In this document: in pieces, positions 46,911 through 63,121 of the stretch
Position numbering within the stretch: position 1 is the stretch's first letter
Layout: every line of letters starts with the position of its first letter
Translations under genes and position numbers: made by a program
The notes under the pieces: model-generated
Database searches by the model: none
Seen by the model: only the letters and a program-made list of their open reading frames with translations
What the model was told of the DNA's origin: nothing
Source of the DNA: Candidatus Magasanikiibacteriota bacterium
GTDB lineage: Bacteria > Patescibacteriota > Patescibacteriia > Magasanikbacterales > UBA922
DNA length: 64,000 nucleotides
Reading direction: 5' to 3'
NCBI GenBank assembly: GCA_903837125.1
Contig: CAILTG010000055.1
Coordinates: 2,199-66,198, forward strand

Positions 46911-49900
46911 TTACGGCCTTGTCCTACCACTTCTTCTAGGGGTACCACCACTCGGTGCCACCACTGGTACTGCTCCCGTACCAGCTGTTCCAGTAGTTGG
47001 TGCTGGAGTAGGAGTTGTCGGTTTTGGTGGTTTCTCTGTCGCGCTTTCTTGGGCTTGCGACAGCTTATTAGTTATTTCAGCAATATTTAAATCCAACACG
47101 CCTTTAGTTTTCTCTCTATGCTTTTCTATAAATTCAATAAGATCATAAACATCCTTAATCTCTTGCTCATCTCCATTTTCATCAGTATACGCATTATTGG
47201 CCATACCTCTTATGGCTGCGTTAAAACCACCTTTTAATGAAGACCGGGAACCTAGTACAGCCATAAAGGCTGGGCCGACTGCTGAAAGTGCAACTGCCAT
47301 ATTGTCGGCGGCATGTGCCAAAGTCAATTTCATTGCTTCTTTTTCTCTATCAACTGCACTCAATTTCTTATCTTTTAATGAATCAAAATATTTTTTATAA
47401 AGCTTTGATTTTTTACCGCCAATCACTGCTCTACCGCTAGCATTTATTTCCGCCTTTTCACCAGGCGTCAAAAAGCCAGCCAAAAGATCACCTTCACGGC
47501 CATGATGCCCTTCCATAATACGTTCAGTATTGGCGCCACTATATGACTCACGTAAGGTGTCAATATTTTTCATTTCCATTCTAAACGTGCCATCATCTTC
47601 ATCATATTGGCCATTACTATGACACATAATTCTTCTCATTCTTTCGTTCACAGGGATCTTGCGCCAATCTGCTGTAATAAACGCCAAGGCATTTTTGGCA
47701 GTCTGGCCTCTAAACATTCCTTCATCCATATCATAATAAGTATGCCCGCCATCATCTAAATGCCCATCTGCCAAAGCCAAATTTTTGGCATCAGCCAGCA
47801 TTTGATTGGCTTCAGTATGGCTTTTCATTTTTGTTTTAAATTTATCCATGGCCCCTGATGAGGATTTTGCACCAACCAAAAAAGTTCTAGCAAAAGAAGA
47901 TAATTCATTTTGAGCACGATCAGTTGTAAAACCTAATTTAGTAGCCAAACCTGCCAAAGGACCGATTAATTTACCAGTTAATGCATCTATAGAACTCTGC
48001 AATACTCCTCCGGTTAATTCCTGCCCTGCACCTACACCTAAAGCATCACGAACTTGATCGCCTAAATTAACGCCAGAAGCAGTATAGCCCATGCCAGTAC
48101 TATCCATATGACTTAACACTGCACTTTCACTTGTTAACAATTCAAGATCTCCAGCATTGCCTATTAACCTATGCAATTGATTGGTTCTTTCATTATCAGA
48201 CTTGTTATCATAAATCAATTTGCTCCCTTCCATATGACCCCAACCCAAGGTGTCCACAAATACTTTTTCCAACATTTGACCTCTTTCGGCTTCTTCACCG
48301 CGCAAACCACCAGCTTTGGAGGCTTTCACTTGATTACCAATTCTTCCCAATAAATCATCAGACCAGCCTTGTTTGGTTAAATAAGTAATACTCGCCATAA
48401 GCATGGCTTCTTGATCACGGCCTAAAGTTTCGCCTTTTTCTTTGGCGGTTAATAACTTGGTCATATCGCCAAACGCCATGCCCACAGCTTGTTCTCTTTC
48501 TATACCATTATAATCTTCCATTTTTTTCTTAATTAAAGATTTAAAAGCCGTGGCCGGTACATGGTGACCATATCTTTCAAAACTGTATTGATCATCGGCT
48601 TCGTCGGTTAATTCTTGCTTGGCAATGCCAGAATGTTCAGCATAATATTTTGATTCAATAGCGCTTCTAGCCTGAAGAGCACCAGCAGATTTACCCAAAG
48701 TTTTTCGAATATCTTCTAATCGGCGCAATTCTGCTTTTGACTGTGCCTGATTTACATTATTTTTTGTGGCAACAGCACCAGCCAATTTGCCTTTTTCCTC
48801 ATTAATTTGTTTAGCATTTTCTTCCTTAGCTTTTAAATCGGTTAAACCAGCACTAAAAATATGCTGTAAATCGGCTTGTTTTATTTTATCAATAAATTTA
48901 TCGGCAGCCTCGGTAAAAATTTTATAAACTTCTTCTTGTTCAAAAAACCCTCTCGGCCCAGCTAAGCCTAAGGCTTTTTCTTTCATTTGGGTTTCAGCAG
49001 ATTTAACACCAGCTTCTTCACTGGCTAATTCCAATTGTGACCTAATTTGTTGCGCCATGCCAGACTGTATTCCAGGCGATTTCTTGCCAGCAAATTTTGG
49101 AACCAATTCAGCTCTTAACGCAGAAATCTTTTGTGCAATTTGAGCTTCAGCCATTCCAGGGTTTTGTCTAATTAAAGCAGTGCGCAATCCTTGTTCGCCA
49201 TTTTCCACATAAACTTTTTTTAGATCTGCATCTTCTCTTCTTGCCTTAGCTGCAGCATACTCCGGCGATTTTTCGTCTGCTTCTAACTTTTTTCTGGCAG
49301 TCAATTTATCATCAACTTTTTTTAAATCTATTTTTTTTGCTGGAATAATAGGATCATTTTCTATGGCTAATGTAGCTCTTCCGCGTAAGTCGTCATTTGT
49401 TGTAGCATTTAATTCGTCTTCTTCTTTCATTTTAGCTTCGGCAATGGCTATTGCTTTTTCAGCATCAATCAAAACCCGTGGTTTTTCCACTTTTCCTGTT
49501 CCTTCTTCAACTGCTTTTAAAGCTGTAGTTGCTGCTGCCATTTCAGTTTCAATCCCTGCCCTTTTAGCCCCAGGTCTTTTCATCTCTTCTTCCAAAGCAT
49601 GTACTGCCCTACTTTTTGCTAAAATATCTTCTTTCCAGGCCTTATAACCGGAATTAGGATCAATCATAACGCCTTTTTTTACGGTTTCTGCCGCGGCGAT
49701 TTCATCTTGAATCGTTTTTCTTACACCAACATGTCTTTCTTTTTCTGTTTGTAAATCTGGTTCTACTACATCGTAATGCACTTTACTTAAAGCATCAATT
49801 TCAGTCGCCAAAGCACCTCTATTTCCTTCTAAGTTTTTAACTTCAGTTGATTTAGCATCTTCATCAATTTGTCCTTCAATTTCTTCTTTTTGTGCCAATT

Positions 49901-52532
49901 CATCTCTGCCTTCTTGTCTGTTTAGTCTTTTTCTTTTGTTAATTACAGTATCTTTTTCAATTTGTGCGGTTTTGGTAGTGGTTTCTGCAGCTGTTACTCT
50001 GGCCACCAAATCTTCACTAATTTTATAGTATTTAGTAGTGGCTGTATCCTTAGCCCCTTTTGCTTCCTGTTCACTCGCCTTCTTCTCCTCTTCTGCCTGA
50101 ATCACCCGAACATAAGGATTCACATTTGCCAACTGTGCTAATTCATAATGAGCTGCTTCTTTGGCCTGTGGAGTAGTGGCCTGATCAATTTTTAATCTTA
50201 CTTTTTCCAAAGCTTTTTTGGCCTCATCAAAATTAACTGTTAATTCAGCATTTTTTAGAGCTTCAACAATGGCTTTGGCGCCTGCTTCTTCTTGTTGGGC
50301 TGTGGCAATCCGCGCTACATATCCAGCACCAGAAGTTGTTTGACCCATAAAGGCCTTGGCTTTCTGGCTTTCGGCCTCATGTTCGGCTTTGGCAGCATCA
50401 AAATCCCACTTAATTTTCTGGCCTCTAATATTGGCGGCCAAACCTTCACGGTCGGCGCGAGATAAATTCATTGGCTTCCCATTTTTGTCTAACCTTACCG
50501 GAAGATCAACTTTATTTCTGGTAACATCCTGAGCTAATTGTTCAACCACATCACCTTCACGTTTAGCAAGCTTCTTACCCTCTGAAGTATTTACAGCGAA
50601 GTCGCTGTTACCAAGCCTGGCCCTGCCGGCATTCTCCTGTTTTAATAAATCATCCAAGGCTTCCTTCTTTTGGGATTCAGTCATTCCTGTATTATCTTCA
50701 ATAGCTTTTACTGCCAGTCTATTTTCCGCACTGCTATTCCGTAAAGCATTCACATCTGCCAATTCGCCATATTTTGCCCGATTGCCGCCTTGACCTAAAA
50801 AGCCTTTATAAGCCTCGGCTTTATCCGCGTTCAAATCCGTAAAACGCACTTCTAACAATGACAAAGCTTCTCTGTCAGCCTTGCCCTTCTCTGTCTCTTC
50901 TCTTCTTTGTTGTGAAATTTTACTTCTAGCCTCAACTTGATCATGAGCAGATTCAGCAGCATATTTATGTTCGCCAGAAGCTGCTGCGCCTCTGCCAAGC
51001 GCCACGCGGGCAATGCCACCTTTATCATAAGCCCACTGGCCAATTTGATCCCTATAGGTTAAATTTTCTCCACGACGCATGGTTTTTTTAGTATCTTCTG
51101 TTCGCAATTTATTTTCCTTTTCTGTATCTTCCAATATTTTCTCTCTCCTCAACCTGCCATAACTTCCGAGCAAAGGGAATTTACGCAAAACCGGAGTAGT
51201 GGCGCGCATGGTATTTATGCGCTTGCCCATAATTTTTGCCGTATCCGTAATAGGTGAAAAAAATCGTTTGGCTCCTCCCGCCAAGGCAGCCTTACCAAGA
51301 GAAGTAGCTTCACTCTTGACTTTTCCTCCCAAAAACCTAGCTGTAGCAAAACCAGTAGCAAAAGCCAAAACTCCTGTACCAATTTTTACTCCCTGAGAAA
51401 CCATACTACCACCTATCACACCCATTTCCTGAACTTTTTGCAGACCGACCAATAAAAAGGCCACGGCTATAAAAAAACTAGCCATGTTTTCCCAACTACT
51501 TACTTCCGCCAAAGTGGCAGCCTGTTTAAGTGGCCCTGTACCGCCTGTAGAATCACTAAAATTAGCATTTAAACCATATTTTGTTTCTGAAGCGGCATCC
51601 ATTTGAAAAGCCGTTGGCATACCTTTCTTCATATCAGTAGCCGCATCGCCCGCGCCCATGGTGGCAAAAGTAAGCCAGAGGAAAAAAACCATTACTGGTG
51701 CCACCAGCACATGTTTACCAAATTGTTTCCACCACTCCTGCGCATATTGCTGAGTTTGAGGAAGCACTTGAGCAATAAACGCTATAGGCGATAAAATTAT
51801 TAAAACCCACAGTACCACTACTCTAATCAACATCACCACCATATAAGTACCCATGGTTACCAAAGTTACCACAGCAAAAAAACAAGAAGCCGCCACTGCC
51901 ATAAATATTTGAGCCGTTATACTTCCTTCTGCACCTGTTAAGGTGCCACCAGCAGTGGCCATCTTCAACATGGCATCCATGTGAAATAGTGAAATAAGAT
52001 TACCACCAGCAGTGGCAGCTACAGCATTTAAAAAAGTAATAGTGAAAACATGTGCAATATCTATAACCAAACCACAAATTAAATTACTAAAATTAATAAA
52101 CACGGCTGCGAAGACAAACTTAACCAAAGTTTTTTTCCATTCATATTGTTCAATACCTAAAATTGTGCCAATGGCAATAGCCAACAAGACCACCACAAAA
52201 AACATATTAGCCACGTCACGCACCATGGCCCAACCAAGCAACACTACTGGCGAATCTATAAAGCCGTTATAACCAGCTGCTTGAATAAAAAATCTTAAAG
52301 CAAAAATCGCCAGCTGAATGCAGAGCTGAGCAATCCAAAGCATTAAAGCAATAGTGGCATCCACCAAATATTCAGCACCAGTACTTACTAATTCCACTGC
52401 TTTAACATTTGGCGCCAAAACCAACCAACCTAAAACCAACACTGCCGTCAACACCAAAGACCACTGCCAACCCTTTTTGGTTTGAGGGAGAAGAGTTTTG
52501 AATAATCTTTTAATTTTTACTTTAACACTCAT
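46911..52532 (-). CDS. Giant (1873 aa) VirB6/TrbL-like polytopic membrane protein with a ~1400-aa hydrophilic, coiled-coil-rich C-terminal extension ending in a Pro/Thr-rich basic tail
   Basis: The N-terminal ~420 aa contain a signal/TM segment plus at least 6 further TM helices in a VirB6/TrbL-like arrangement. The remainder is Ala/Lys/Glu-rich with many predicted coiled coils. The tail is PPKPTTPTPAPTTGTAGTGAVPVVAPSGGTPRRSGRTRP. Confidence 0.5.
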   Translation of the reverse strand: MSVKVKIKRLFKTLLPQTKKGWQWSLVLTAVLVLGWLVLAPNVKAVELVSTGAEYLVDATIALMLWIAQLCIQLAIFALRFFIQAAGYNGFIDSPVVLLGWAMVRDVANMFFVVVLLAIAIGTILGIEQYEWKKTLVKFVFAAVFINFSNLICGLVIDIAHVFTITFLNAVAATAGGNLISLFHMDAMLKMATAGGTLTGAEGSITAQIFMAVAASCFFAVVTLVTMGTYMVVMLIRVVVLWVLIILSPIAFIAQVLPQTQQYAQEWWKQFGKHVLVAPVMVFFLWLTFATMGAGDAATDMKKGMPTAFQMDAASETKYGLNANFSDSTGGTGPLKQAATLAEVSSWENMASFFIAVAFLLVGLQKVQEMGVIGGSMVSQGVKIGTGVLAFATGFATARFLGGKVKSEATSLGKAALAGGAKRFFSPITDTAKIMGKRINTMRATTPVLRKFPLLGSYGRLRREKILEDTEKENKLRTEDTKKTMRRGENLTYRDQIGQWAYDKGGIARVALGRGAAASGEHKYAAESAHDQVEARSKISQQRREETEKGKADREALSLLEVRFTDLNADKAEAYKGFLGQGGNRAKYGELADVNALRNSSAENRLAVKAIEDNTGMTESQKKEALDDLLKQENAGRARLGNSDFAVNTSEGKKLAKREGDVVEQLAQDVTRNKVDLPVRLDKNGKPMNLSRADREGLAANIRGQKIKWDFDAAKAEHEAESQKAKAFMGQTTSGAGYVARIATAQQEEAGAKAIVEALKNAELTVNFDEAKKALEKVRLKIDQATTPQAKEAAHYELAQLANVNPYVRVIQAEEEKKASEQEAKGAKDTATTKYYKISEDLVARVTAAETTTKTAQIEKDTVINKRKRLNRQEGRDELAQKEEIEGQIDEDAKSTEVKNLEGNRGALATEIDALSKVHYDVVEPDLQTEKERHVGVRKTIQDEIAAAETVKKGVMIDPNSGYKAWKEDILAKSRAVHALEEEMKRPGAKRAGIETEMAAATTALKAVEEGTGKVEKPRVLIDAEKAIAIAEAKMKEEDELNATTNDDLRGRATLAIENDPIIPAKKIDLKKVDDKLTARKKLEADEKSPEYAAAKARREDADLKKVYVENGEQGLRTALIRQNPGMAEAQIAQKISALRAELVPKFAGKKSPGIQSGMAQQIRSQLELASEEAGVKSAETQMKEKALGLAGPRGFFEQEEVYKIFTEAADKFIDKIKQADLQHIFSAGLTDLKAKEENAKQINEEKGKLAGAVATKNNVNQAQSKAELRRLEDIRKTLGKSAGALQARSAIESKYYAEHSGIAKQELTDEADDQYSFERYGHHVPATAFKSLIKKKMEDYNGIEREQAVGMAFGDMTKLLTAKEKGETLGRDQEAMLMASITYLTKQGWSDDLLGRIGNQVKASKAGGLRGEEAERGQMLEKVFVDTLGWGHMEGSKLIYDNKSDNERTNQLHRLIGNAGDLELLTSESAVLSHMDSTGMGYTASGVNLGDQVRDALGVGAGQELTGGVLQSSIDALTGKLIGPLAGLATKLGFTTDRAQNELSSFARTFLVGAKSSSGAMDKFKTKMKSHTEANQMLADAKNLALADGHLDDGGHTYYDMDEGMFRGQTAKNALAFITADWRKIPVNERMRRIMCHSNGQYDEDDGTFRMEMKNIDTLRESYSGANTERIMEGHHGREGDLLAGFLTPGEKAEINASGRAVIGGKKSKLYKKYFDSLKDKKLSAVDREKEAMKLTLAHAADNMAVALSAVGPAFMAVLGSRSSLKGGFNAAIRGMANNAYTDENGDEQEIKDVYDLIEFIEKHREKTKGVLDLNIAEITNKLSQAQESATEKPPKPTTPTPAPTTGTAGTGAVPVVAPSGGTPRRSGRTRP

Positions 52533-52580: not shown

Positions 52581-55500
52581 CTATTTCTTCTTCTCATTTG
52601 GTATCACAATAATCTTTGATTGAAAATAAGTCCAGGCGTTAATTTTTGTTGGATCACAATTTTTACTACTATCATCGCCATAACAGCCTTTAGGATCATT
52701 ACAATTACACCAACCCCAGTTGTCCATTAGTTGAACTTTGGGTTGAAAAACACACACCATAATCGCTGAAGGACTTTTTTCCCGTATGATCTTTTTCTGA
52801 TCCTCATCTAAACTATTAACAGGGGTGGTAGCAGTTTGATTATCACAAGCATAACCATGTTCAATTTTGAAATAATTTGCTCGGCAAGTGCGCATAATAT
52901 CACCAAAACTCTGGAGAGTATCATTAGGTAAACGACCACAAGTCGCAGCTGCGTCTATCCCCAAGCAATCTGAATTATCATTACAAGTTATTTGTTTGTC
53001 TTTATTACCAACCAAGCAGTGTTTTACCGTAAAATTACCACCATCATCATTTGATTCACAAATTGGCTTATTATTAAAGTAATAACCACTAATTCCTTGA
53101 CCATAAATTGGCAGATCATCACCCCAATCTATCATTAGTCTACGTAAAGGCATGCGGTTTTCATCAGCAAAACCATAAAATTCCACCATGGCGTTATAAG
53201 TGCCTATTCCTACTAAATTATCCGCATCAGTTAAGCCATTTTTATTTAAATCCTCTTCAAAAACATTGGTATCACCAGCATAATGAGCCCCAGGTAAACC
53301 ATTATTTTTATTTACTGTAAAAGTATTCGGCATCCAAGGAGTACATTTAACGGCCACCCCAGAAGTATTACTACTAGGTAAACAATTAACTAAATTAAGT
53401 GAATAAATTTGCGGCGGTAAAAGCTTGGCGAAAACACCAGAATTACTAGCAGCAACATCCACATCGCCACCACTGACAAGCTTTAATGTATTATCATTAC
53501 GTTTAACCACATAATATTCTTTAGCAAATAACTGGTGAAGTATTTCTCGGCCGTTAACACCGTTTAGAGTACCAAGGCCGGTGATTACATTATAGTAAGG
53601 ACTGGCAGTATTATCAGCCGCACTGGTAACTGTTTGGCCGTTAGCATCTAATATTGGAACCATTAAACCGGAACAACCTAAATAATAACTTGCTGCCACG
53701 TTAATTAAGCTGTCAGTTGCCCATAAAATTTGACTGCAAACAAATGGATAACCTGCTGCTGCCGGATCCATAAAATTATAATCAATAATTGAATCCTGGT
53801 TATGTACTAAATCAGAACCCTTCAAACTTAAATTACCAAACGGACGGCTGACACTGGTGTTATTTAACAATGTAGTAGTGGCAGCACCAGCTAATTTTAA
53901 AGTCAAAACATCTGCAGCATTTTTCCACACTCTATTAGTCCAGGCTTTGTTGGAAACAGGAATGCCAGAATAACTAATTGGTTGGTTTTCATTATAAACT
54001 TGCACATATTCTGTACAACGAGGATACAAATCGGCGATTACGCCGAGGTAAGGGTAAAGAACATGATTAAGCGCGTGGAGATTATTATTTGTAAGACTAT
54101 TAACAGGATTAGAAAACGTTCCACCTTCGCTTCTGGAAAATAGAGCTTTACCTCTATTCATTTTAGCTAAAGCAATAAAATTATTATTAAGCTTGGCACT
54201 CCAACCACTGTTGAAGTAGGAAGGATTGCTACAACCAAAACCCGCATAACAATTAAAAGCAATATTATCATATACCTGGTCTTTGTAACCACTCTCAAAA
54301 GTTGAAAGATCTAAATTATTATCTGAATCAAATTTGAATAAAGTGGCGCGATAAAAACCGTTAAGACTCCCCTCATACGCAGATGCAGTCTGTACACCAC
54401 AGTCTTTGCCAGGGTCAAGTCCGCTAGGTAGATTATTATATTTATTGGCAGTATCCACCGCTAATCCTGAATCTGTAGATTCTATATTTGGACATTCCAA
54501 TTCATTACTAATAATACTACCAAATCTATCTGAATTTATTGAACTTGGATTACCTTCATATTGGTCGTTATCATCAACCACTACACCAATCACCAAATGA
54601 TTATCATTCTTATTTTTTGCATAAAATGCCACAGCAGTAACGTTCCTTGGAGTTTCTGGAGTGGTGTGTATATTTAAATGAGCTGAACTAAAATCTAAAA
54701 GAAAAGTATAAGTAACATAACTCCAATTTGGAGAACGACGGTCAATACTATTTGGTTCAGGAGGGTTTAAATAAAGTGAACGCAAACGATCCACATCAAT
54801 TTTTACATTATCTATTAGAGCAAAACTTCTATCACTACCAGTAAAGCGTGTACCCTTATAAGAATAGGGAGCCAAATATAATGCCTTAAGATCTTTTTCA
54901 TTAACTTTTTTTGTAGCAACATACGGCTTTGAAGCTACCCCAGTAAAATCATTAAAATAAGAATCACCAAAGCCCATTAAATTAGTAGGGGCACAACTAC
55001 CACTACTACTACAGGTTACAGTCTCTTTCTCACTCCACTTCACTGGATCATGCGCCAACAGCACTTGAGCCGTGGGGCTAATTTTTAGCCAGGAGTAGGT
55101 TTGGAGGTAGGTGTAGAAAGTATTACTTTTGTCGCTAGAGTTGACTTTCTTTGAAAAAGAATCAGCACTTAGATTATTATTACACCAACCCAAAACAGAT
55201 TTTGTATAATCCTCTTGGGGATCACCATATTGAAAAGTACTCGTGTCATTACAAATTTGCTCTGTAAATGGGTTAATCATCCAAAAAAAGTTATCTTTAT
55301 CAAACATCGAAATAAAATGACCTTTAGTATTTTTATCAGTACAATCAAGTGCAGAATTGACATTTGAATCCTGAAAAATTGAAGGAACAAAACACTTATT
55401 CAAATAATCATAAGCCAAATTAGCATAAGCTTCCACTTCTGGAGATGGGTCATTTAAAAAATTTGCTTTAGGATCAAAAGAGTTTTTTTTGCTAAATTCC

Positions 55501-58500
55501 TCTGACCATTCCTTATTAGGATCATATTTTGAAGGATCAAAAGCACGTAAACTTCGCTGTGTTCTAAAAGCTAAATATTGAACAAAAGCATTATCAGCTG
55601 GTTCAAAAAAATGGTTCGGCTGTCCAAAACATTCTGTCTTTATATTTTCCACCCATTCATAACACACACCAGGAGTACCAGTATATGCTAAACAAGTTAT
55701 GTACTGTTGTCTTACAGGAATAGGTTCAACCTTGCACCATTCAAACCGCCCCGCTACTGATGAATTATTATCATATTTAGAAGGATTTTCTCTTGGTGGA
55801 AAATAACTCTCTATCAAACCATTCCCTTTTCCATCCTTTTCCATTTTCTGATTAATATCAGAAAAATTTTCATATATTGGTGTAAGTAATCCATATAGGT
55901 TTACCATTCCAAAATTTTTCCAATAACTCTTTTCATAACTGAGCGGCGCCGTAGAATTGGTGCAGTATACTTCTCCAATACTAGGATTGGCATCTATACC
56001 AGTAGTATAGCCAAGATTGGGATTGCCATTTATATTGTCGGCAGTACCGCCAGCTAAATCTAGTGGAAGCCAGGTGAGACAAGGAAAAATTATTTTGCCA
56101 GTGCTGTCTGTGCCCAACGGATGGCTTAGATCATTTTCTAAACAATAACCAGTTGTTCCTTTATATTTATCTATGGAAGACTCTTGCGCGCAAACACCAT
56201 TGGTATTATCACCACTATTACAGTCAGTATCTACTAAACAAGCAAAACCATCTTTATTTCCACCAGTACAAATACCCTGAGGCCTTACATCAAAAGGATT
56301 TTTTAAAGTTGAATTATCAGGCCAGTAATCAGGCAATACTCCTTTGTAATTAATTTTTTCATATTGGCAAGAACAGTCTACATTGGCTTGACAAACATTT
56401 ACTCCTTTATAATCATTTTTTATATTAGTAAATTCTGCGCGCCAACCCCCCTTATCTGGTGTATTCTTAAACCATTTTTTTCCATTTTCTACGCCATTTT
56501 TAGCATCATTAACTTTGGAATCTACCACCAAAGATTCAGGAAAAGGTGAAGTGGCTTCAGGATGAGATTTACAAATACTCTTGGACCAAGCAGAACTAAC
56601 CACCGCTTTTTCAACACCAGTATTTATATCAACTATACCAACATCAGCAAATGGACCATCTAATGGATAAATACAACTTCCGTTATAACAACGGCCGCCG
56701 TTATCTATGCCACAAATACCTTTAATAGAATTACCTGAACTATCTATACAATTGGCATTATTGGAATCTGAATGAACTAAATAAAGTTTATTACTTGAAG
56801 GAAAACTAACTGCCCGATCAGTTGCCAAATTATAGCGATTCAACAGCGAATAACCAGAATAATCTGGTTCAGCCCAGCCCACCGCGCGCCCTACATAAAA
56901 GGCTTCATCCAACAAATTATTATTTGTGGTGGGGAGAAAATTATTGCAATAACCGTCTGGGGTAGTTTGATTGCACAAACCAAAATCTGAACAATATTTA
57001 ATGGTTTTACCAGTTTCGGTTTGCAAATCAAAAGAAGTACGGCAAGACAGCCATTCAGAACATTCACGATCACGCCTTACTTTTAACAATAAATTAGTGT
57101 CAAGCTGGCCAGTGGTTACCGGAGGAACTGGTAAAAACCGCTCTGGCTTGGTAGCGGCCGAGTTGGCATAAGTAGCCCCACTATTATAAATTTTATTGGG
57201 ATCCTCAGTGCGGTTAAACAAAACGCAGCCCCTAGTTTCGCCCACTTTATTATTACAACCATTTATTTGATCTGACGCTTGGTCTACTAAATCTTGGCTA
57301 TAAATTACATAGTAAGGCTTACCAGTGGGATCTTGTGCAGAAGTAGCCACCGTGTCCAAGAGCTCGGTACAAGCATTATTGGCTTCGTCACATTCCCCTA
57401 CATTGCCTTTATAACTACTAGTATTACCATTAGACCAAATACCGTTTTCAATATTATTTTGCAAATAATTATCATAACAAGGAACCGGATTTGTTTTCTG
57501 ACAAGAATTCCCTTGGCCACAGTCATCATCAACGCGACATAATTGGGCAGAACCAGAACTGCAATAGCCTATATCTTTCTTAAACCAACCATAAGCTTGT
57601 GTTGGATTAATTGGATCATGTTGTTTGTAATAGCAAAGACTGTTGCCGGTTTGTAAAGGATCTTTGAAATAAAAAGTATTGGCTCCATAAGTATAACCGC
57701 TGCAACCAAGCAAACCACTGCGGCATAAAGTTCCTTTAATTCCAGTAGTATCATTGGTTAAATAATTAGCCGGATTATTTTTATAATACACGTCAGAAAA
57801 TTGATAAGAAGTGGTATCAGAATTCGGCAAAATATGATTTTCCTGACCAAATTTTTGACAACCCAATTCAGCTTGCGTGCAAGTGAGTGGTGTACTGCTG
57901 GCTAAATTATAAGTGGTTAAGAAAATTGGTGTATGATCAGAAGTATCTGCGGGAATAACTATGGTGGAAGTAACTACATATAATTCACCAGTATCGGTTG
58001 AAGTGGTTGGCTCGGTGTGACCACCAGAATGAAATGAATTAAAATGTATAATACCCTTGGTGTGATCAAAAGCAGGATTGATAGTATAATAATCTGGAAC
58101 ACTCACTGGAGCTTGTGTGTAACCAGTAGGACTTACTAAACCCTGGACAAAACAACGATCTTCTCCAGGTAAAACTGTACAACCATAGGTTCCATTATCA
58201 CCCACAGTAAATGAACACTTGGGAGTTGTAGAAGTAAGCCTGCATTCAGCATTATAAAGCTGTATTTGTTGATCTAGTGGATTACCAGAAATACGGTTAT
58301 GCGAATCATAAACCGCGGTACAACCCACTGCCTCAGGCCGACACATTTTAGCAAAACCAGTTAAATTTGCTTCAACATTCTGTTTATTAATAGCAGAATT
58401 TACCACATCAATATAAGCTTTACAACCCAAAGCCTTGCCTGGATAAGGAGTTTTAGCATTACCTAAATCTTCATCAGTGGTGCCAAAACAAGCGCCCGGA

Positions 58501-61500
58501 GCATCAGCCCAAAATGTTTCCCCAGTAGATAATTGAATTAATGATTTCCAGCTATCTTTAATTAAATAAATATTGCCTGGAACTTCGGTCAGCCGTACAT
58601 TATCAATATAATATGAGCCGCCTACTCCTGGAGAACTAACTAGACCAAAATATAACTGAGCAGGAGTGGTGCTGGCACCGGTAAACTCCACTGGCCCAAA
58701 ATGATAATTTTGCCATTCACTGCCAATGGTGACTGAAAGCGGTGTTTGTGCTTCTTGATTGTAAGTAAATGCTCCTACTTTATCAGTAGCTTGTTTAAAA
58801 TAAATCTCAATATTTTGTGAAGTGCCGCGCGCCCAAAAAGACAATTCATACCAGCCCTGATTATTTAAACTCCCGGCCGGCAATTGCCGATTTACATCAT
58901 CTTTTATTTCCAAAGAATGTCCACCCGCGTAAATTGATTCTGGAGATAGAGTTACTCCTGACCACAGACTTAAAGAACTAGTGGTTTCAAAATCGTCAAT
59001 CTCAAAAACATTTCTAGGACTGTTACCATTATTACCTTTATAAGCACGACAACCATTAAACTCTGCTAAATTATCAGCTGGACCATTACAGGACAATGAC
59101 TCACCAGGCCGAGAAATTGTCCAATAAATACAAGTACTGCTGGCATATTGTCCACCATTATAGCAACGCTGACAAGTATTATTGGCACGATCCCAATAGC
59201 CTTGTTCATCCGCGCAAGAGGGAGAAACAAAATCAATTCTACTTTCCTTTAAAAGAGAATCCGAATATAAATGAGCAGCTGTTTTGCGCAAAGGATGGCA
59301 AGCTGGGTCAACGGTTACTGTTTCACTTAATAAGCGATAAAAAACTTCGCCATTACTATTATAAAGTGCCCGACAATTTGGGGCATCATCAGATAAACTA
59401 GAATAAAGCTGATTATTATAAGCAAGAGCATTGCAAATATAATTATTATTAATCATTTTTTCCGGACTATAATCCACATAAGCTGGTGAACCTAAAGGAA
59501 ATCCTGACCAGATAGTGCTGTTAACTTCGGCTTTAATTAATAATAATTTGTCTGCGTTTATTTTAAGCATTTTGTGAGTGCGCAACACATAGCCTTCTTG
59601 TTTGGAACCTTCCCAAGAATAAAAAGTTCCTTCATTACTGCCAGTTGGCCTTTCACAATAACGCAATTGACTATAATATTCCAAACCTTCACCACCAGCC
59701 GCGGCAGCATCAATATTTGTGAACTCATCACAACCAACAAACTCTTTACTGCAAATCTGTTTACCCTGTACCATATTGGTTTGCGCAACAATAGGCACAA
59801 AATAAAGCGGAAATTTTTGTGGTTCAAAATCAGTGCTTTCTTGTTTAAAAGTATTATAACCAACGCAATTGGCAGCACACTTATTAATATCTTCAGCTAC
59901 TCCAGGAATCATTTGTCCACCATCTTTTGGCTGATAGGCCAGACAACCAACTTCTTCTGGTAAACAGGCGCGAGAAAAATTATCACAACGAGGTTCAGTC
60001 GGAAGTAAAGCTAATTCAGGTTTGGTTTGCGGCCAAACAATTTCTTTATTCGCAGAACGAGGATCAATATTATAACACCCCAAATAATCCGGAGCTTTTT
60101 TAATATAAACCAAAGCGCCAGTATCATAATTATTTACATAAGCACCATCACCATCTAAAATCGCCGGATAAAAAGAACTACAGCCATCATTGGCAGCATC
60201 ACATATATTATTATCTGCTATAAAATTTTTATTAAAATATGATACTTGATTCCGACCAGCAAGCTGGTAATTCAAACCTTGCACTTTTGAACTGGGCAGC
60301 CAACTATCACCCACTTGCTCTTGGCTGTAAGCAGTACAACCAACATCATTGGCTGTGCACTGGCCATAATCTACAGTACGTGATAAATAACTGGGAGTAG
60401 TTCCATCAATAGCAGTATAAGTTTTACAAGTATTATAATAACTTGGACAAGTAGGAGCGTCTAAACGCCAAATATTACCTTCTTTTAAGCAATAACTATG
60501 ATAACCACCCAGACAACCGCCTTTATTATCCTCTTTTATACAAGTAGACAAATCCGCGCATTCGGTTTGTCTAGTACCCAAACCAGAACTTTGTGTCCTT
60601 TCGCCAATCACCGCTGATTCGCAAACAGCCTCAGGCGATTTTAACAGCCAATTAGGATCAATTAAATGACAATACTGATATACCGGGTCGCTACTTATTT
60701 CTACTTTACCATTAACATAATAACAATTATCATAATTATCAACCACTGTTTTCAAAGTCCAAGCCGCCAAATTATGGGGGTCAGCTTTGAAAGCTGCCAA
60801 CTCAAAACCTAAAGGAATAATTCTAGCTTTTCTTAATTTTTGTAAATTAGAATAACAATAGCCGCGACTATAACAATTTTTGTCAGTATTATCCGACACT
60901 CTACTGGGAGAAATTAAAGGCCAATCAGCATGCAATAAATCCTCTTTTTTATCCATGGCTTGTCTAATAGTCATTGCCGCCGCCCCATTGCTGCCACGGT
61001 TTACTGCTGTAGCAAAAGGCAAATCCATTACACAATTATCAGGATCATTTGAGCTGAGGTCACAGCTAGAAAACTTGGTAACAATTCCATAATCAATAAA
61101 ACTTTTATTAGGCACGGCCGTATAAAAGAAACTAAAAGCATTAGCCACTGCTTGCTGTGTTTGCGCCACATACTCACTGGTGTAAGAATTGAGCACTGGG
61201 GCTTGTTCGCCTGCTCCACTGCCACTACTATCAAACAACCCTTTGCTTAAAAGTTTATTTAACAATTGGCTTACCAAAGTGTTAAGAAAAACCGAACCGG
61301 CCATAGGCAATATCTGAGCTGACGCAGCCCCATAAATTCCGGCTATTTGTTGATTGCTTTCTTTGCCCTTTTCTTTGGCAGTCAAAGCTGTAGATTCTGT
61401 TTTAATTATATCGCCAGGGGTTTTTATATTACCGGAAATAAGATCAGTTAACGGCTTAAAACCCGCAGCTTCTAAACGTTGGCTAGTGGCGCCAGCTACT

Positions 61501-62243
61501 TCAGTGGCTTGCAAACGATCTATCTGAGCCTGAGCACCTAAAGCCAAACTAAAATCATCATTAGAAGTTTTTATGGAATTAGCCAACAATTGATCAGCAA
61601 ACTTTGAACCATCAGCCCCATATTTTTGTTGCATGCCAGTAGTCCAAGCACCCTGCATTTGCTGAAAAGTACAATCTGGTTGCGGACCGTTTTCATTATT
61701 TGTACCATTTCCACTGCCATTTTTAGAAGGTTGTTTATACTTCTGCCTTAAACCAACCTGTAAAAAAGCTTGCAATTTTAAATCCGGAGTTTGACACATG
61801 TCTAAGCCAAATGGCTTGCCTAACTGGTTAATTAGGGAAGCCGCGCTATTTTCCGCAATACCCACAATATAACTGGAAAAATTTTGCTTAAAAGCCAAAG
61901 CACCCTGGCCGTGACCACCGGTAGAGATAAACATGGCTAAATCATAAGATACTTTACGAGCCACATAAGAAGCCATATTTACTAAACCACCCAAAGCTGC
62001 GGTTAACAAAGTACTTTTTACAGTATCAGCGGTAGATTTGGCAGCGATTAATGTTTGTGTTCCTGTGTCCTTCGTCGGCATTCCCGGTGTTGCTGCCGCA
62101 GTTGCTGCCGCAGCCGCCATAGCCGCTGCCTCCTCCTGTGCTTGAACCGTTTGAGTATTAAAAATAAAACCAAAAAGTTCTACAAATACAAAAAACATTA
62201 TGAAAATTTTCAAAAATACTTTTTGGCCTTTAAGGTTGTACAT
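52581..62243 (-). CDS. Giant (3220 aa) secreted cysteine-rich surface protein, a putative adhesin or apparatus-associated protein
   Basis: It has an N-terminal signal peptide (IFIMFFVFVELFGFIFNTQTVQAQ) followed by Ala-rich and Gly/Asn/Ser/Thr/Cys-rich sequence throughout, with very many Cys residues and no TM beyond the signal. It is a single ORF of 9.66 kb. Confidence 0.55.
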   Translation of the reverse strand: MYNLKGQKVFLKIFIMFFVFVELFGFIFNTQTVQAQEEAAAMAAAAATAAATPGMPTKDTGTQTLIAAKSTADTVKSTLLTAALGGLVNMASYVARKVSYDLAMFISTGGHGQGALAFKQNFSSYIVGIAENSAASLINQLGKPFGLDMCQTPDLKLQAFLQVGLRQKYKQPSKNGSGNGTNNENGPQPDCTFQQMQGAWTTGMQQKYGADGSKFADQLLANSIKTSNDDFSLALGAQAQIDRLQATEVAGATSQRLEAAGFKPLTDLISGNIKTPGDIIKTESTALTAKEKGKESNQQIAGIYGAASAQILPMAGSVFLNTLVSQLLNKLLSKGLFDSSGSGAGEQAPVLNSYTSEYVAQTQQAVANAFSFFYTAVPNKSFIDYGIVTKFSSCDLSSNDPDNCVMDLPFATAVNRGSNGAAAMTIRQAMDKKEDLLHADWPLISPSRVSDNTDKNCYSRGYCYSNLQKLRKARIIPLGFELAAFKADPHNLAAWTLKTVVDNYDNCYYVNGKVEISSDPVYQYCHLIDPNWLLKSPEAVCESAVIGERTQSSGLGTRQTECADLSTCIKEDNKGGCLGGYHSYCLKEGNIWRLDAPTCPSYYNTCKTYTAIDGTTPSYLSRTVDYGQCTANDVGCTAYSQEQVGDSWLPSSKVQGLNYQLAGRNQVSYFNKNFIADNNICDAANDGCSSFYPAILDGDGAYVNNYDTGALVYIKKAPDYLGCYNIDPRSANKEIVWPQTKPELALLPTEPRCDNFSRACLPEEVGCLAYQPKDGGQMIPGVAEDINKCAANCVGYNTFKQESTDFEPQKFPLYFVPIVAQTNMVQGKQICSKEFVGCDEFTNIDAAAAGGEGLEYYSQLRYCERPTGSNEGTFYSWEGSKQEGYVLRTHKMLKINADKLLLIKAEVNSTIWSGFPLGSPAYVDYSPEKMINNNYICNALAYNNQLYSSLSDDAPNCRALYNSNGEVFYRLLSETVTVDPACHPLRKTAAHLYSDSLLKESRIDFVSPSCADEQGYWDRANNTCQRCYNGGQYASSTCIYWTISRPGESLSCNGPADNLAEFNGCRAYKGNNGNSPRNVFEIDDFETTSSLSLWSGVTLSPESIYAGGHSLEIKDDVNRQLPAGSLNNQGWYELSFWARGTSQNIEIYFKQATDKVGAFTYNQEAQTPLSVTIGSEWQNYHFGPVEFTGASTTPAQLYFGLVSSPGVGGSYYIDNVRLTEVPGNIYLIKDSWKSLIQLSTGETFWADAPGACFGTTDEDLGNAKTPYPGKALGCKAYIDVVNSAINKQNVEANLTGFAKMCRPEAVGCTAVYDSHNRISGNPLDQQIQLYNAECRLTSTTPKCSFTVGDNGTYGCTVLPGEDRCFVQGLVSPTGYTQAPVSVPDYYTINPAFDHTKGIIHFNSFHSGGHTEPTTSTDTGELYVVTSTIVIPADTSDHTPIFLTTYNLASSTPLTCTQAELGCQKFGQENHILPNSDTTSYQFSDVYYKNNPANYLTNDTTGIKGTLCRSGLLGCSGYTYGANTFYFKDPLQTGNSLCYYKQHDPINPTQAYGWFKKDIGYCSSGSAQLCRVDDDCGQGNSCQKTNPVPCYDNYLQNNIENGIWSNGNTSSYKGNVGECDEANNACTELLDTVATSAQDPTGKPYYVIYSQDLVDQASDQINGCNNKVGETRGCVLFNRTEDPNKIYNSGATYANSAATKPERFLPVPPVTTGQLDTNLLLKVRRDRECSEWLSCRTSFDLQTETGKTIKYCSDFGLCNQTTPDGYCNNFLPTTNNNLLDEAFYVGRAVGWAEPDYSGYSLLNRYNLATDRAVSFPSSNKLYLVHSDSNNANCIDSSGNSIKGICGIDNGGRCYNGSCIYPLDGPFADVGIVDINTGVEKAVVSSAWSKSICKSHPEATSPFPESLVVDSKVNDAKNGVENGKKWFKNTPDKGGWRAEFTNIKNDYKGVNVCQANVDCSCQYEKINYKGVLPDYWPDNSTLKNPFDVRPQGICTGGNKDGFACLVDTDCNSGDNTNGVCAQESSIDKYKGTTGYCLENDLSHPLGTDSTGKIIFPCLTWLPLDLAGGTADNINGNPNLGYTTGIDANPSIGEVYCTNSTAPLSYEKSYWKNFGMVNLYGLLTPIYENFSDINQKMEKDGKGNGLIESYFPPRENPSKYDNNSSVAGRFEWCKVEPIPVRQQYITCLAYTGTPGVCYEWVENIKTECFGQPNHFFEPADNAFVQYLAFRTQRSLRAFDPSKYDPNKEWSEEFSKKNSFDPKANFLNDPSPEVEAYANLAYDYLNKCFVPSIFQDSNVNSALDCTDKNTKGHFISMFDKDNFFWMINPFTEQICNDTSTFQYGDPQEDYTKSVLGWCNNNLSADSFSKKVNSSDKSNTFYTYLQTYSWLKISPTAQVLLAHDPVKWSEKETVTCSSSGSCAPTNLMGFGDSYFNDFTGVASKPYVATKKVNEKDLKALYLAPYSYKGTRFTGSDRSFALIDNVKIDVDRLRSLYLNPPEPNSIDRRSPNWSYVTYTFLLDFSSAHLNIHTTPETPRNVTAVAFYAKNKNDNHLVIGVVVDDNDQYEGNPSSINSDRFGSIISNELECPNIESTDSGLAVDTANKYNNLPSGLDPGKDCGVQTASAYEGSLNGFYRATLFKFDSDNNLDLSTFESGYKDQVYDNIAFNCYAGFGCSNPSYFNSGWSAKLNNNFIALAKMNRGKALFSRSEGGTFSNPVNSLTNNNLHALNHVLYPYLGVIADLYPRCTEYVQVYNENQPISYSGIPVSNKAWTNRVWKNAADVLTLKLAGAATTTLLNNTSVSRPFGNLSLKGSDLVHNQDSIIDYNFMDPAAAGYPFVCSQILWATDSLINVAASYYLGCSGLMVPILDANGQTVTSAADNTASPYYNVITGLGTLNGVNGREILHQLFAKEYYVVKRNDNTLKLVSGGDVDVAASNSGVFAKLLPPQIYSLNLVNCLPSSNTSGVAVKCTPWMPNTFTVNKNNGLPGAHYAGDTNVFEEDLNKNGLTDADNLVGIGTYNAMVEFYGFADENRMPLRRLMIDWGDDLPIYGQGISGYYFNNKPICESNDDGGNFTVKHCLVGNKDKQITCNDNSDCLGIDAAATCGRLPNDTLQSFGDIMRTCRANYFKIEHGYACDNQTATTPVNSLDEDQKKIIREKSPSAIMVCVFQPKVQLMDNWGWCNCNDPKGCYGDDSSKNCDPTKINAWTYFQSKIIVIPNEKKK

Positions 62244-62272: not shown

Positions 62273-63025
62273 TTATTTTTTGGTGGTGGAAACTATTCCC
62301 AACACTTTGGCCGCACCTTCATCACTTAAATCTAAATTATTATTTGAACCAGCAGTTGTACTAGTACTGGATTCTTGCAATAACTGAGTAATCATTTGCA
62401 TTAAAGACTGATCGTCAATTTTAGAAAGTGTGTCAGTGGCAATTTTACCGGTGGCCAAGAGCATTTCCCGCACAGTTTTAGGATCTTGTAAATCTTGTTT
62501 AAATCCAGAAAAAGCTCCATTATCATTTGTGGCCACAGTTTGATTAATAATATCCTGTGCTGTGGCTACGTTGGCCAAAGGACTACCCATATCAATAATA
62601 GTGGAAGAAGGAGAAGCAGTGGAAGAAAGTACGCCTTCTGAACCTGGATACTGCGCTCCAGCTGTACAATTTTGATTATTTGCCGCACATAAGGGATTTA
62701 AATTTTTAGCAATTTTTTCTTTATCAGACATATTATCTGAAGCAGTGGACCATAAATAAGGGCTGGTATGATAAACATAAATTTCATCATAATCGGTCAA
62801 GCCATCATGATCAGTGTCAATATATTTTAACCGTAAAACAGGATCAGTAACTGAAGGAGATAATTGGCTGTCTAAAAGTGGTTTATAAGCAAAAGGACCA
62901 TAAACACGATTACGTATTTGAAGTAATCCCAAACCCACGGCTAAAATACCAAAAATCAGCAACAAAACAAAGCCTGTTTTCTGCTGTCCAGTTAAAGCCT
63001 TTCGCCTTAGATCGTTTTGATCCAT
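62273..63025 (-). CDS. Membrane-anchored protein (250 aa) with a thrombospondin-type-3-like Ca-binding motif; first gene of the operon
   Basis: TM helix GFVLLLIFGILAVGLGLLQI. The motif DTDHDGLTDYDE matches DxDxDGxxDxxE. Confidence 0.45.
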   Translation of the reverse strand: MDQNDLRRKALTGQQKTGFVLLLIFGILAVGLGLLQIRNRVYGPFAYKPLLDSQLSPSVTDPVLRLKYIDTDHDGLTDYDEIYVYHTSPYLWSTASDNMSDKEKIAKNLNPLCAANNQNCTAGAQYPGSEGVLSSTASPSSTIIDMGSPLANVATAQDIINQTVATNDNGAFSGFKQDLQDPKTVREMLLATGKIATDTLSKIDDQSLMQMITQLLQESSTSTTAGSNNNLDLSDEGAAKVLGIVSTTKK

Positions 63026-63048: not shown

Positions 63049-63057
63049 ATTATAGCA
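63049..63057 (-). promoter_or_regulatory. Extended -10 promoter (TGcTATAAT) for the nine-gene operon
   Basis: Minus-strand TGCTATAAT (plus coordinates 63049-63057) lies 24 nt upstream of the ATG at 63025. It is embedded in the inverted repeat ATTTGCTA...TAGCAAAT. Confidence 0.35.
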
Positions 63058-63121
63058 AATTTTTAACAACTTAACAACAAAGAGTGGATAAGTCCACCAC
63101 AGCTGAGGCTGTGGTTAATTT

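What the first reader, a model, noticed from the sequence alone, without database searches (positions are those of the whole stretch)
52581..62243. A 3220-aa secreted, Cys-rich giant protein embedded in the T4SS-like operon
A 9.66-kb single ORF with a signal peptide, no further TM segments and hundreds of Cys, Gly, Asn and Thr residues. It is co-oriented and tightly packed between the first operon gene and the VirB6-like giant. Its size and composition suggest a surface fibre or adhesin exported or displayed by the apparatus, the sort of protein expected to mediate attachment to a host cell.
Basis: partly seen in the sequence, partly recalled or inferred. Interest (0 to 1): 0.6.

Follow-up and report, generated by a model that had tools for sequence, protein, structure and literature searches.

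The report
Giant secreted surface protein beside T4SS
This is a real, conserved 3220-residue secreted protein of an ultra-small (Patescibacteria) bacterium, with a sugar-binding module and a swappable middle section, and it is a candidate for the missing host-attachment partner of these bacteria's type IV secretion machine, although nobody has tested its function.

Summary
The ORF is real: 52581-62243 (-), 3220 aa, an N-terminal Sec-type signal and no other hydrophobic segment. It has 110 Cys, not hundreds.

It belongs to an unannotated family of 2700-3300-aa proteins. Relatives were confirmed in 168 stretches of species-representative Magasanikbacteria/Falkowbacteria-type genomes.

Architecture:
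- A conserved 2100-aa N-part: a helical domain, Cys-stapled modules with about 60 invariant Cys, and a CBM4/9-like jelly roll.
- A fast-evolving, roughly 630-aa middle region that is an orphan in the query.
- A conserved C-terminal beta domain.

In one near-identical pair of relatives, only the middle region is replaced, with sharp boundaries and 7-fold higher dS. That points to recombination.

A small TSP3-repeat membrane protein lies immediately upstream in 56 of 56 loci. T4SS genes (VirB6-like, PrgI, TrsD, VirB4) follow, co-oriented, within 10 kb in 19 of 38 loci, including all 7 deep-branching ones.

VirB4 is 80-85% identical among relatives. The giant is at most about 40% identical.

Best reading: a Sec-exported, disulfide-rich host-contact protein that probably works with the T4SS. 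The fibre idea and export through the apparatus are not supported. Function remains inferred.

The parts
52581..62243 (-). Giant gene, 3220 aa plus stop. The mature protein is about 349 kDa with pI about 5.0.
   Evidence: The family has 85 homologues and 168 genome stretches.
62139..62243 (-). aa 1-35: Sec-type signal peptide (basic n-region, hydrophobic core aa ~9-29, VQA|Q). The family consensus is PAxAQ.
   Evidence: Hydropathy; consensus. This is an inference, because no SignalP-type tool was available.
61089..62138 (-). aa 36-385: conserved, Cys-poor (2 Cys), Ala/Gly-rich domain predicted to be all-helical. Motifs include SYFxRKxAYDxAxxxASGGKGQ, GFKxVTDxISGxxKTPA and SVFLNTLxSxLL.
   Evidence: AF2 gives helices but pLDDT is mostly below 50.
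59124..61088 (-). aa 386-1040: conserved Cys-rich region I (33 Cys, 5.0%), with the recurrent hairpin motif C-x6-GC-x2-[YF].
   Evidence: Invariant Cys. The motif occurs 11 times against 1.5 +/- 1.2 in shuffles. AF2 is confident for about aa 390-530 and 830-1070.
58569..59123 (-). aa 1041-1225: CBM4/9-like jelly-roll (carbohydrate-binding-module fold).
   Evidence: PF02018 passes its cut-off in distant homologues at the aligned position and in 7 of 20 members of alignment A5. The PDB profile search gives laminarinase CBM 1gui, E 0.004. AF2 pLDDT is about 80-89, and Foldseek gives 8xmz, 2zex, 3jxs and 4bj0 at E 1e-6 to 1e-5, TMt 0.5-0.6. The query itself has no Pfam hit.
55944..58568 (-). aa 1226-2100: conserved Cys-rich region II (42 Cys, 4.8%).
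   Evidence: No Pfam or PDB sequence match.
54039..55943 (-). aa 2101-2735: fast-evolving middle cassette. It is an orphan in the query.
   Evidence: No homologue aligns here. There is only a self hit among 1.84 billion representative proteins. Alignability falls far faster than in the N-part. Relatives L025 and L027 show a sharply bounded divergent block with dS 0.94 against 0.135. No Pfam domain in 55 members.
52584..54038 (-). aa 2736-3220: conserved C-terminal region. Motifs include NKAWTxRVW, MPIRRVxVDWGD and DNWGWCN, and the extreme C-terminus is conserved (GxIIVxP). There is no LPXTG motif and no TM segment.
   Evidence: AF2 is confident (pLDDT 75-95) for aa ~2940-3220, which is beta-rich. 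No significant structural or sequence match.
62273..63025 (-). Invariant partner gene: a 250-aa single-pass membrane protein (TM aa ~14-39) with TSP3-type Ca-binding DxDxDG motifs. The second motif is degenerate in the window.
   Evidence: Weak TSP3_bac in Pfam. Present immediately upstream in 56 of 56 loci. Conservation pattern; TM segment.
63049..63115 (-). Likely operon start. Going downstream on the coding strand from the KsgA gene there is a terminator-like hairpin (63083-63115) and then the best promoter-like site of the region (TTGTTA-17-TGcTATAAT, 63077-63049), 24 nt before the partner gene.
   Evidence: These are consensus scans only, not proof of function.
46911..52532 (-). 1873-aa protein with a polytopic N-terminus (about 7-8 hydrophobic segments in aa 21-368) and a long charged/coiled region. 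It sits in the VirB6 position but no profile matches it.
   Evidence: Homologues follow the giant gene in 19 of 38 loci.
40609..46885 (-). Rest of the T4SS-like block: 503-aa and 362-aa proteins of unknown function, PrgI/VirB3-like (43846-44271), TrsD-like VirB4 N-domain protein (43133-43831), VirB4 ATPase (41211-43103), and a 192-aa TM protein.
   Evidence: The make-up agrees with the Patescibacteria MPF-FATA-like T4SS described in PMC12102498.

Best explanation
The gene encodes a Sec-exported, disulfide-stabilised extracellular protein of about 349 kDa. I propose it is the host-contact and recognition protein of Magasanikbacteria-type Patescibacteria.

Proposed working:
1. The signal peptide is cleaved at the conserved AxA site. 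(Inferred.)
2. The mature protein has no anchor of its own. It is held at the cell surface by the invariably co-encoded single-pass TSP3 calcium-binding membrane protein. (Inferred from 56/56 adjacency.)
3. The conserved 2100-residue N-part forms a rigid scaffold cross-linked by about 60 invariant cysteines. It carries a CBM4/9-like module that binds a glycan on the partner cell envelope. (The fold is shown; the ligand is inferred.)
4. The roughly 630-residue middle cassette evolves several-fold faster and is exchanged by recombination between close relatives. It sets partner specificity or escapes recognition. (The diversification is shown; its purpose is inferred.)
5. The gene stands at the head of the T4SS-like block in the window, in half of the relatives and in all deep-branching ones. 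It therefore probably acts with that machine, bringing or holding the T4SS at the host surface. PrgB-type adhesins play that role for monoderm conjugation systems, and no such counterpart had been detected in Patescibacteria. (Inferred.)
For: - Real, constrained gene family; dN/dS 0.05-0.44.
- Signal peptide only, with no other TM segment and no LPXTG.
- About 60 invariant Cys and a recurrent C-x6-GC-x2-[YF] motif, which implies an oxidising, extracellular location.
- CBM fold supported by four independent routes.
- Middle region: orphan, loses alignability fast, and shows a sharply bounded replaced block with 7-fold higher dS in the L025/L027 pair.
- The giant is at most about 40% identical to its nearest relative, while the VirB4 encoded 10 kb away is 80-85% identical to its relatives.
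- Partner gene present in 56 of 56 loci.
- T4SS genes co-oriented within 10 kb downstream in 19 of 38 loci and in 7 of 7 deep-branching ones. In one 'negative' genome the T4SS lies 12.7 kb away, with two more large secreted proteins in between.
- Gaps of only 29 and 48 nt, with no terminator-like site between the giant gene and the VirB6-like gene.
- Literature: the Patescibacteria T4SS is MPF-FATA-like and no adhesin was detected for it (PMC12102498). Large Cys-rich extracellular CPR proteins with strain variation have been proposed to mediate attachment (PMC4736985).
Against: - There are no experimental data of any kind.
- In 19 of 38 loci no T4SS gene lies within 10 kb. Many of these have AspRS downstream instead, so co-transcription is not required.
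- Long-range gene order (ComF, HSP20, VanW, SMC) is also conserved among these genomes. Part of the adjacency may therefore be plain collinearity.
- Whether genomes that carry the giant always carry a T4SS was not tested.
- No known adhesin domain was found.
- AF2 confidence is low for about half of tile A and three quarters of tile B.
- The query's own CBM region has no Pfam hit at E<=1.
- The recombination signal rests mainly on one close pair, with weaker support from a second.
- dN/dS is below 1 in every region.
Confidence: 0.45

Rival explanations
1. It is a general envelope protein: a surface-layer or cell-wall-associated scaffold, or a glycan-capturing factor. It works with its TSP3 partner independently of the T4SS, and the adjacency is an inherited gene order without functional coupling.
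For: - The invariant unit is KsgA, TSP3 protein, giant (56/56 and 51/53).
- The break with the T4SS block falls exactly between the giant and the VirB6-like gene in half of the loci.
- Wider collinearity is conserved.
- Sec export needs no T4SS.
- CBM modules are common in envelope and scavenging proteins.
Against: - Adjacency is kept across the deepest split of the family, where the giants are 27-33% identical. That is far more than expected by chance in genomes of roughly 1 Mb.
- Intergenic gaps are very short.
- A housekeeping envelope scaffold would not be expected to diverge to at most 40% identity while VirB4 stays at 80-85%, nor to swap a cassette.
Confidence: 0.3
2. It is a structural extracellular part of the T4SS-like machine itself, such as a stalk, tip or conduit that bridges to the host envelope, rather than a separate adhesin.
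For: - It sits directly upstream of the VirB6-like gene.
- Monoderm-type T4SSs lack known extracellular channel parts, and tubular structures are seen at a patescibacterial host interface (bioRxiv 10.64898/2026.06.21.733656).
- The N- and C-terminal domains are conserved and have no known fold match.
Against: - Core machine parts are normally the most conserved and strictly linked. This gene is the fastest-evolving of the block and is unlinked in half of the relatives.
- The family was found here only in Magasanikbacteria/Falkowbacteria-type genomes, whereas the T4SS is phylum-wide (PMC12102498).
Confidence: 0.12
3. It is a released polymorphic toxin or effector whose variable region is the active, diversifying payload.
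For: - A conserved scaffold is combined with a recombining variable block.
- The CBM-like domain resembles receptor-binding domains of binary toxins (CDTb, iota Ib).
Against: - The variable block is internal and the C-terminus is conserved.
- There is no room for an immunity gene in the 48-nt gap.
- No toxin or enzyme family was found in 55 variable regions.
- The binary-toxin matches cover only the generic jelly roll.
Confidence: 0.06
4. It is a pseudogene, a misassembly or a chance ORF.
For: None found.
Against: - A 9.66-kb uninterrupted frame in DNA of about 38% G+C.
- An identical protein is on record from a 68-kb contig.
- Full-length homologues occur in many independent assemblies.
- Selection is purifying.
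Confidence: 0.01

Closest known systems
PrgB-type surface adhesins of monoderm (MPF-FATA) conjugative T4SSs, e.g. pCF10 PrgB
   Same: It is a large Sec-exported surface protein encoded within or next to a monoderm-type T4SS gene block. The proposed role is the same: establishing cell-cell contact for the machine.
   Different: There is no sequence or domain relationship. There is no LPXTG anchor. It is about 2.5 times larger, Cys-rich, and carries a CBM-like module and a recombining cassette. Linkage to the T4SS holds in only half of the relatives. PMC12102498 reports that no PrgB-like adhesin was detected in Patescibacteria.
Large cysteine-rich extracellular proteins of CPR bacteria (Peregrinibacteria, Anantharaman et al. 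2016, PMC4736985)
   Same: Features shared with that description: more than 1000 aa, a signal peptide, predicted extracellular location, high Cys content, strain-level variation concentrated in these genes, and a proposed attachment role.
   Different: It is a different lineage. Homology between the two sets was not tested. That paper reports no partner gene, T4SS linkage, CBM module or defined variable cassette.
CBM4/CBM9/CBM16-type carbohydrate-binding modules (Pfam PF02018)
   Same: aa ~1041-1225 adopts the same jelly-roll fold, and homologues pass the Pfam threshold.
   Different: Here it is one small module in a 3220-aa protein with no glycoside hydrolase domain. The ligand is unknown, and the query sequence itself falls below Pfam detection.
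Mosaic host-recognition proteins with exchangeable specificity regions (phage tail fibres and receptor-binding proteins, type IV pilin and adhesin variable cassettes)
   Same: A conserved scaffold is combined with a sharply bounded, recombining, highly divergent block between near-identical relatives.
   Different: There is no structural or sequence similarity to viral proteins. The block is internal rather than at the tip. There is no DGR template repeat and no silent cassette in the window.

Membership tests
PrgB-like T4SS adhesin (MPF-FATA) | C-terminal LPXTG sortase motif followed by a TM segment and a basic tail | tested here: not met
   There is no LPxTG near the C-terminus. The only LP.[TSA]G match is LPMAG at aa 312, and there is no hydrophobic segment beyond aa 33.
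PrgB-like T4SS adhesin (MPF-FATA) | Recognisable adhesin domains (GbpC/antigen I/II-type polymer adhesin domain, Ig-like Csh domains) | tested here: not met
   No Pfam, NCBIfam or PDB sequence hits.
PrgB-like T4SS adhesin (MPF-FATA) | Encoded in the T4SS gene block | tested here: met
   True for the window and for 19 of 38 relatives.
Repetitive giant adhesins (RTX/BIg-repeat type: LapA, SiiE, Bap) | Long arrays of tandem Ig-like repeats and a C-terminal T1SS/RTX signal | tested here: not met
   No tandem or dispersed DNA repeats in the gene. No repeat families in Pfam. An N-terminal Sec signal is present instead.
CBM_4_9 (PF02018) domain-containing protein | Jelly-roll carbohydrate-binding module detectable by profile or fold | tested here: met
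   Homologues reach 26.8-32.8 bits against a cut-off of 25.9 at the aligned position, and 7 of 20 members of A5 match. Fold match at E about 1e-6, TMt 0.5-0.6. The query alone is below detection.
CBM_4_9 (PF02018) domain-containing protein | Actual glycan binding | not testable with these tools
   This needs recombinant protein and glycan arrays.
Large Cys-rich extracellular CPR proteins (PMC4736985) | More than 1000 aa, signal peptide, high Cys content, no cytoplasmic domains, strain variation | tested here: met
   3220 aa and 110 Cys, rising to 5% in the Cys-rich regions. Variation between close relatives is concentrated in one block.
Polymorphic toxin / CDI-type effector | Variable C-terminal toxin domain followed by a cognate immunity gene | tested here: not met
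   The variable block is internal and the C-terminus is conserved. A 48-nt gap separates it from the next gene. No toxin families were found.
DGR (diversity-generating retroelement) target protein | Variable repeat in the gene matched by a template repeat nearby, plus a reverse transcriptase | tested here: not met
   No repeat of 40 nt or more links the gene to any other part of the 64-kb window. Pfam was run on most ORFs above 100 aa and found no RT. An RT outside the window is not excluded.
Core T4SS component (VirB2/B5/B6/B8-like) | Profile or fold similarity to a known T4SS subunit, and strict linkage to virB4 | tested here: not met
   No profile or PDB match. Linkage holds in 19 of 38 loci only. 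Remote fold similarity of the low-confidence N-domain could not be assessed.

The most novel reading that the evidence does not exclude
The giant and its TSP3 membrane partner form the dedicated extracellular host-recognition module of the patescibacterial T4SS in the Magasanikbacteria/Falkowbacteria lineage. This would be a new, non-PrgB class of T4SS-associated adhesin. Its CBM docks on host envelope glycan, and its internal cassette, exchanged by recombination, sets host range. That would explain why profile searches found no adhesin for these T4SSs.
Probability: 0.3. Interest if true: 0.75.

Novelty: new variant of a known kind. Interest (0 to 1): 0.55.

Why it matters
Patescibacteria make up a large share of bacterial diversity and mostly live attached to other microbes. 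Their T4SS is essential in the one genetically tractable lineage, yet its function and its means of host contact are unknown, and no adhesin has been detected for it (PMC12102498, PMC11665869).

This finding gives a conserved, secreted giant protein that has:
- a glycan-binding fold,
- an invariant membrane partner,
- ancestral linkage to the T4SS,
- a recombining specificity-like cassette.

That makes it a concrete, testable candidate for host recognition in the uncultured Magasanikbacteria-type lineage. The cassette could also serve as a marker for tracking host range and strain turnover in metagenomes. If the T4SS link proves to be only historical, it is still a well-delimited new family of CPR surface proteins.

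Tried and rejected
1. Pfam, NCBIfam and PDB sequence searches gave nothing except the CBM. They covered the whole protein, the profiles of the N-part, the middle-conserved part and the C-part, and 55 variable regions.

2. An exhaustive HMMER search of the variable region against 1.84 billion representatives returned only the self hit.

3. Full-length homologues aligned to a C-terminal tile gave a misaligned MSA (A3), which I discarded. I rebuilt the alignment with C-terminal fragments (A6).

4. AF2 results:
   - Tile aa 31-1230 had mean pLDDT 57.8.
   - Tile aa 2021-3220 had mean pLDDT 42.5. The variable region was unpredicted, and only aa ~2940-3220 were confident.

5. Fold searches:
   - Foldseek of the C-terminal model against PDB and BFVD found nothing significant.

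6. A profile search with the N-terminal helical domain (A9) returned only 2 fragments and missed the known family. Candidate selection was probably swamped by low-complexity words. It therefore says nothing about whether this domain occurs in other architectures.

7. DGR and silent-cassette idea: no repeats link the gene to the rest of the window.

8. Fibre or repeat-adhesin idea: rejected, because there are no repeats.

9. Polymorphic-toxin idea: rejected on architecture.

10. 'VirB6-like' identity of the 1873-aa neighbour: no profile or PDB support. Only its topology and position fit.
Full report
**Observation.** The window holds one uninterrupted ORF at 52581..62243 on the minus strand: ATG start, 3220 codons, then a stop.
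- Composition is N 275, S 264, G 252, T 226 and C 110, or 3.4% Cys.
- The only strongly hydrophobic stretch lies within aa 6-33. It is followed by VQA|Q, and the family consensus at that point is PAxAQ. This fits a cleaved Sec signal peptide.
- There is no second TM segment and no LPXTG motif.
- The mature protein would be about 349 kDa and acidic.
- The gene lies 29 nt downstream of a 250-aa gene and 48 nt upstream of an 1873-aa gene, all on the same strand.
- The best promoter-like site of the region sits just before the 250-aa gene. A terminator-like hairpin separates that gene from ksgA. No terminator-like site lies between the giant gene and the next gene. These are consensus scans only.

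**The T4SS context is real.** Downstream lie a PrgI/VirB3-like protein above the Pfam cut-off, a VirB4-type ATPase (5e-29), and a 232-aa TrsD-like VirB4 N-domain protein.
- This matches the MPF-FATA-like T4SS described for Patescibacteria (PMC12102498).
- The 1873-aa neighbour has about 7-8 hydrophobic segments in its first 370 residues but matches no VirB6 profile or solved structure. 'VirB6-like' is therefore a positional guess.
- The closest VirB4 homologues are from Candidatus Magasanikbacteria.

**A conserved, unannotated family.** A search of 5.8 billion proteins gave 85 homologues of 1819-3493 aa (nearly all 2500-3300), at 26-40% identity. All are hypothetical proteins from Magasanikbacteria or Patescibacteria. 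An identical copy of the query is on record from a 68-kb contig. A scan of species-representative genomes confirmed 168 stretches.
- Homologues align to aa 1-2100 and aa 2735-3220 of the query. None aligns to aa ~2100-2735.
- The N-part carries about 60 invariant cysteines.
- A hairpin-like motif, C-x6-GC-x2-[YF], recurs 11 times against 1.5 +/- 1.2 in shuffles.
- Cys density is 5% in aa 386-1040 and 1226-2100, but about 1% in aa 36-385 and in the CBM region.
- Invariant cysteines in a signal-peptide protein imply disulfides and an extracellular location. This is an inference.

**Domains.** The query has no Pfam, NCBIfam or PDB sequence match.
- Distant homologues pass the Pfam threshold for CBM_4_9 at the position aligned to query aa ~1040-1220, as do 7 of 20 members of the N-part alignment.
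- A family profile hits the laminarinase CBM 1gui at E 0.004.
- The AF2 model of aa 31-1230 has mean pLDDT 57.8. It is confident for about aa 390-530 and 830-1070, and for a jelly roll at about aa 1075-1220. Foldseek matches that model to CBM4, CBM16 and porphyran-binding modules at E about 1e-6 and TMt 0.5-0.6, and to the receptor-binding jelly rolls of binary toxins. The search does not report which part of the model aligns; I take it to be the jelly roll because the targets are CBM modules of about 140-170 residues.
- Residues 36-385 are predicted all-helical at low confidence.
- In the model of aa 2021-3220, only aa ~2940-3220 are confident. They are beta-rich and have no significant match in PDB or BFVD.
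- The gene has no tandem or dispersed repeats. It is a non-repetitive multidomain protein, not a repeat fibre.

**The middle region diversifies, at least partly by recombination.** The query's aa 2100-2735 find only themselves among 1.84 billion representative proteins. None of 55 family members has a Pfam domain there.
- Across the family, the region ranges from 164 to 840 aa.
- Pairs that are 80-89% identical in the N-part are only about 51% identical in the middle. At 30-49% N-part identity, only 33-40% of pairs can be aligned there at all.
- In the closest pair with DNA (L025/L027), nucleotide identity is 91-99% (mostly 95-98%) over the first ~5.9 kb and 98% again after ~8.1 kb. In between it drops abruptly to 62-82%.
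- In that pair, synonymous divergence is 0.94 in the block against 0.135 in the N-part. This points to replacement by a divergent allele rather than faster point substitution.
- A second pair, L016/L039, also shows higher dS in the 3' third.
- dN/dS is below 1 everywhere (0.05-0.44), so there is no region-wide signal of positive selection.
- No DGR-type template repeat links the gene to the rest of the window.
- The whole protein also evolves fast. Its nearest relative is about 40% identical, while VirB4 from the same block is 80-85% identical to many relatives. In shared loci the figures are, for example, 34-38% against 79-81%.

**Synteny.** I examined 83 related loci.
- A homologue of the 250-aa gene lies immediately upstream in 56 of 56 loci with enough upstream DNA. 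ksgA lies before it in 51 of 53.
- That partner is a single-pass membrane protein with TSP3-type DxDxDG calcium-binding motifs and a conserved C-terminal segment.
- T4SS genes (VirB6-like, the 362-aa protein, PrgI, TrsD-like, VirB4) follow on the same strand within 10 kb in 19 of 38 loci with a full flank.
- All 7 loci of the deep-branching clade (27-33% identity) have the T4SS adjacent. Within the main clade, linked and unlinked loci are interspersed, with two coherent unlinked subclades (a rough NJ tree). The adjacency therefore looks ancestral and was lost several times.
- In one 'unlinked' genome the T4SS is 12.7 kb downstream on the same contig, with two other large secreted proteins in between. 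In many others AspRS follows the giant.
- Caveat: gene order further downstream (ComF, HSP20, VanW, SMC) is also conserved among these genomes. Part of the adjacency may reflect general collinearity.

**Interpretation.** Shown: this is a real, constrained, secreted, cysteine-rich giant protein with a CBM fold, an invariant membrane partner, a rapidly diverging and recombining internal block, and frequent, apparently ancestral, co-oriented adjacency to a T4SS block.

Inferred: it sits on the cell surface, probably held by the TSP3 partner. It binds a glycan on a partner cell, its cassette tunes specificity, and it cooperates with the T4SS as an adhesin analogue. I put 0.45 on this full statement. 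I put roughly 0.7 on the narrower claim that it is an extracellular host- or environment-interaction protein.

The main rival (0.3) is an envelope or glycan-capture protein whose T4SS adjacency is historical. A structural T4SS part (0.12) and a polymorphic toxin (0.06) fit the data less well. Pseudogene or misassembly is excluded.

**Comparison with the known.**
- Functionally, the nearest analogues are PrgB-type adhesins of monoderm conjugation systems. The defining anchor and domains are absent, so it is not a member of that family.
- It fits the loosely defined class of large Cys-rich extracellular CPR proteins proposed to mediate attachment (PMC4736985).
- The 2025 survey of Patescibacteria T4SSs detected no adhesin.
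- Recent reviews call the T4SS function in these bacteria unknown (PMC11665869).
- I found no paper describing this family, but the literature search was limited to the held library.

**Verdict.** I rate it a new variant of a known kind, with interest 0.55.

Noticed in passing
window 40501-40542 and 63117-63158: A 42-nt AT-rich direct repeat, 93% identical, with core CAATTTACAATTTACAATTTTCAAT (0 matches expected by chance). It occurs in the two intergenic regions that bracket the whole block from the TSP3 gene through the giant and T4SS genes to the 192-aa gene. One copy is just after ksgA, the other directly upstream of comF, where it also forms an inverted repeat (40508-40549 / 40563-40604). 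It could be a shared regulatory site or the remnant of element ends.
   Followed up: partly
window 30492-31907 (-): A 471-aa secreted protein made of about 4-5 tandem copies of a 246-nt (82-aa) Cys-rich unit at 80-91% DNA identity. It has no solid Pfam match. This is a second, unrelated Cys-rich extracellular protein in the window.
   Followed up: partly
window 20061-27461 (-) and 13521-19013 (-): Two further giant ORFs. One is 2466 aa, with an N-terminal M48 peptidase domain and a C-terminal ABC1 atypical-kinase domain. The other is 1830 aa, with only a weak DUF294 nucleotidyltransferase hit. Neither is related to the finding.
   Followed up: partly
window 3921-6449 (-): An 842-aa protein with DUF5667, CARDB and Kre9/KNH Ig-like domains and an internal 275-nt repeat (4423-4997). 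It is probably another surface protein.
   Followed up: no
window 34052-34095 and 36511-36554: A 44-nt inverted repeat flanks the RecQ-like gene (34238-36382). The arms look like parts of two oppositely oriented tRNA genes (GGAGAGATGGCCGAGTGGTTTAAGGC...). ARAGORN was not run.
   Followed up: no
L013 20638-29288 and L084 1-829 (contig CAZMHV010000002.1): In this relative, two additional large signal-peptide proteins lie between the giant gene and the T4SS block: one of about 1572 aa and one of 1747 aa with CBM_4_9. Neither is BLAST-related to the giant family. The region upstream of the T4SS can therefore accumulate big secreted proteins.
   Followed up: partly
L025 vs L027 (giant gene, nt ~5930-8140 of the gene): These two relatives are 91-99% identical in DNA (mostly 95-98%) across the gene and its upstream flank. 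A sharply bounded 2.2-kb block is only 62-82% identical. A second divergent patch lies about 2 kb upstream of the gene (57-61% identity, with gaps).
   Followed up: partly
window 38173-39750 (+) and 36725-38176 (+): Two plus-strand genes interrupt the otherwise minus-strand region: a 525-aa polytopic membrane protein and a 483-aa protein. Neither has a Pfam match.
   Followed up: no
(tool behaviour): A profile search with the Ala/Gly-rich N-terminal domain alignment returned only 2 fragments and missed the 85 known family members. Negative results from word-indexed searches with low-complexity queries should not be trusted.
   Followed up: no
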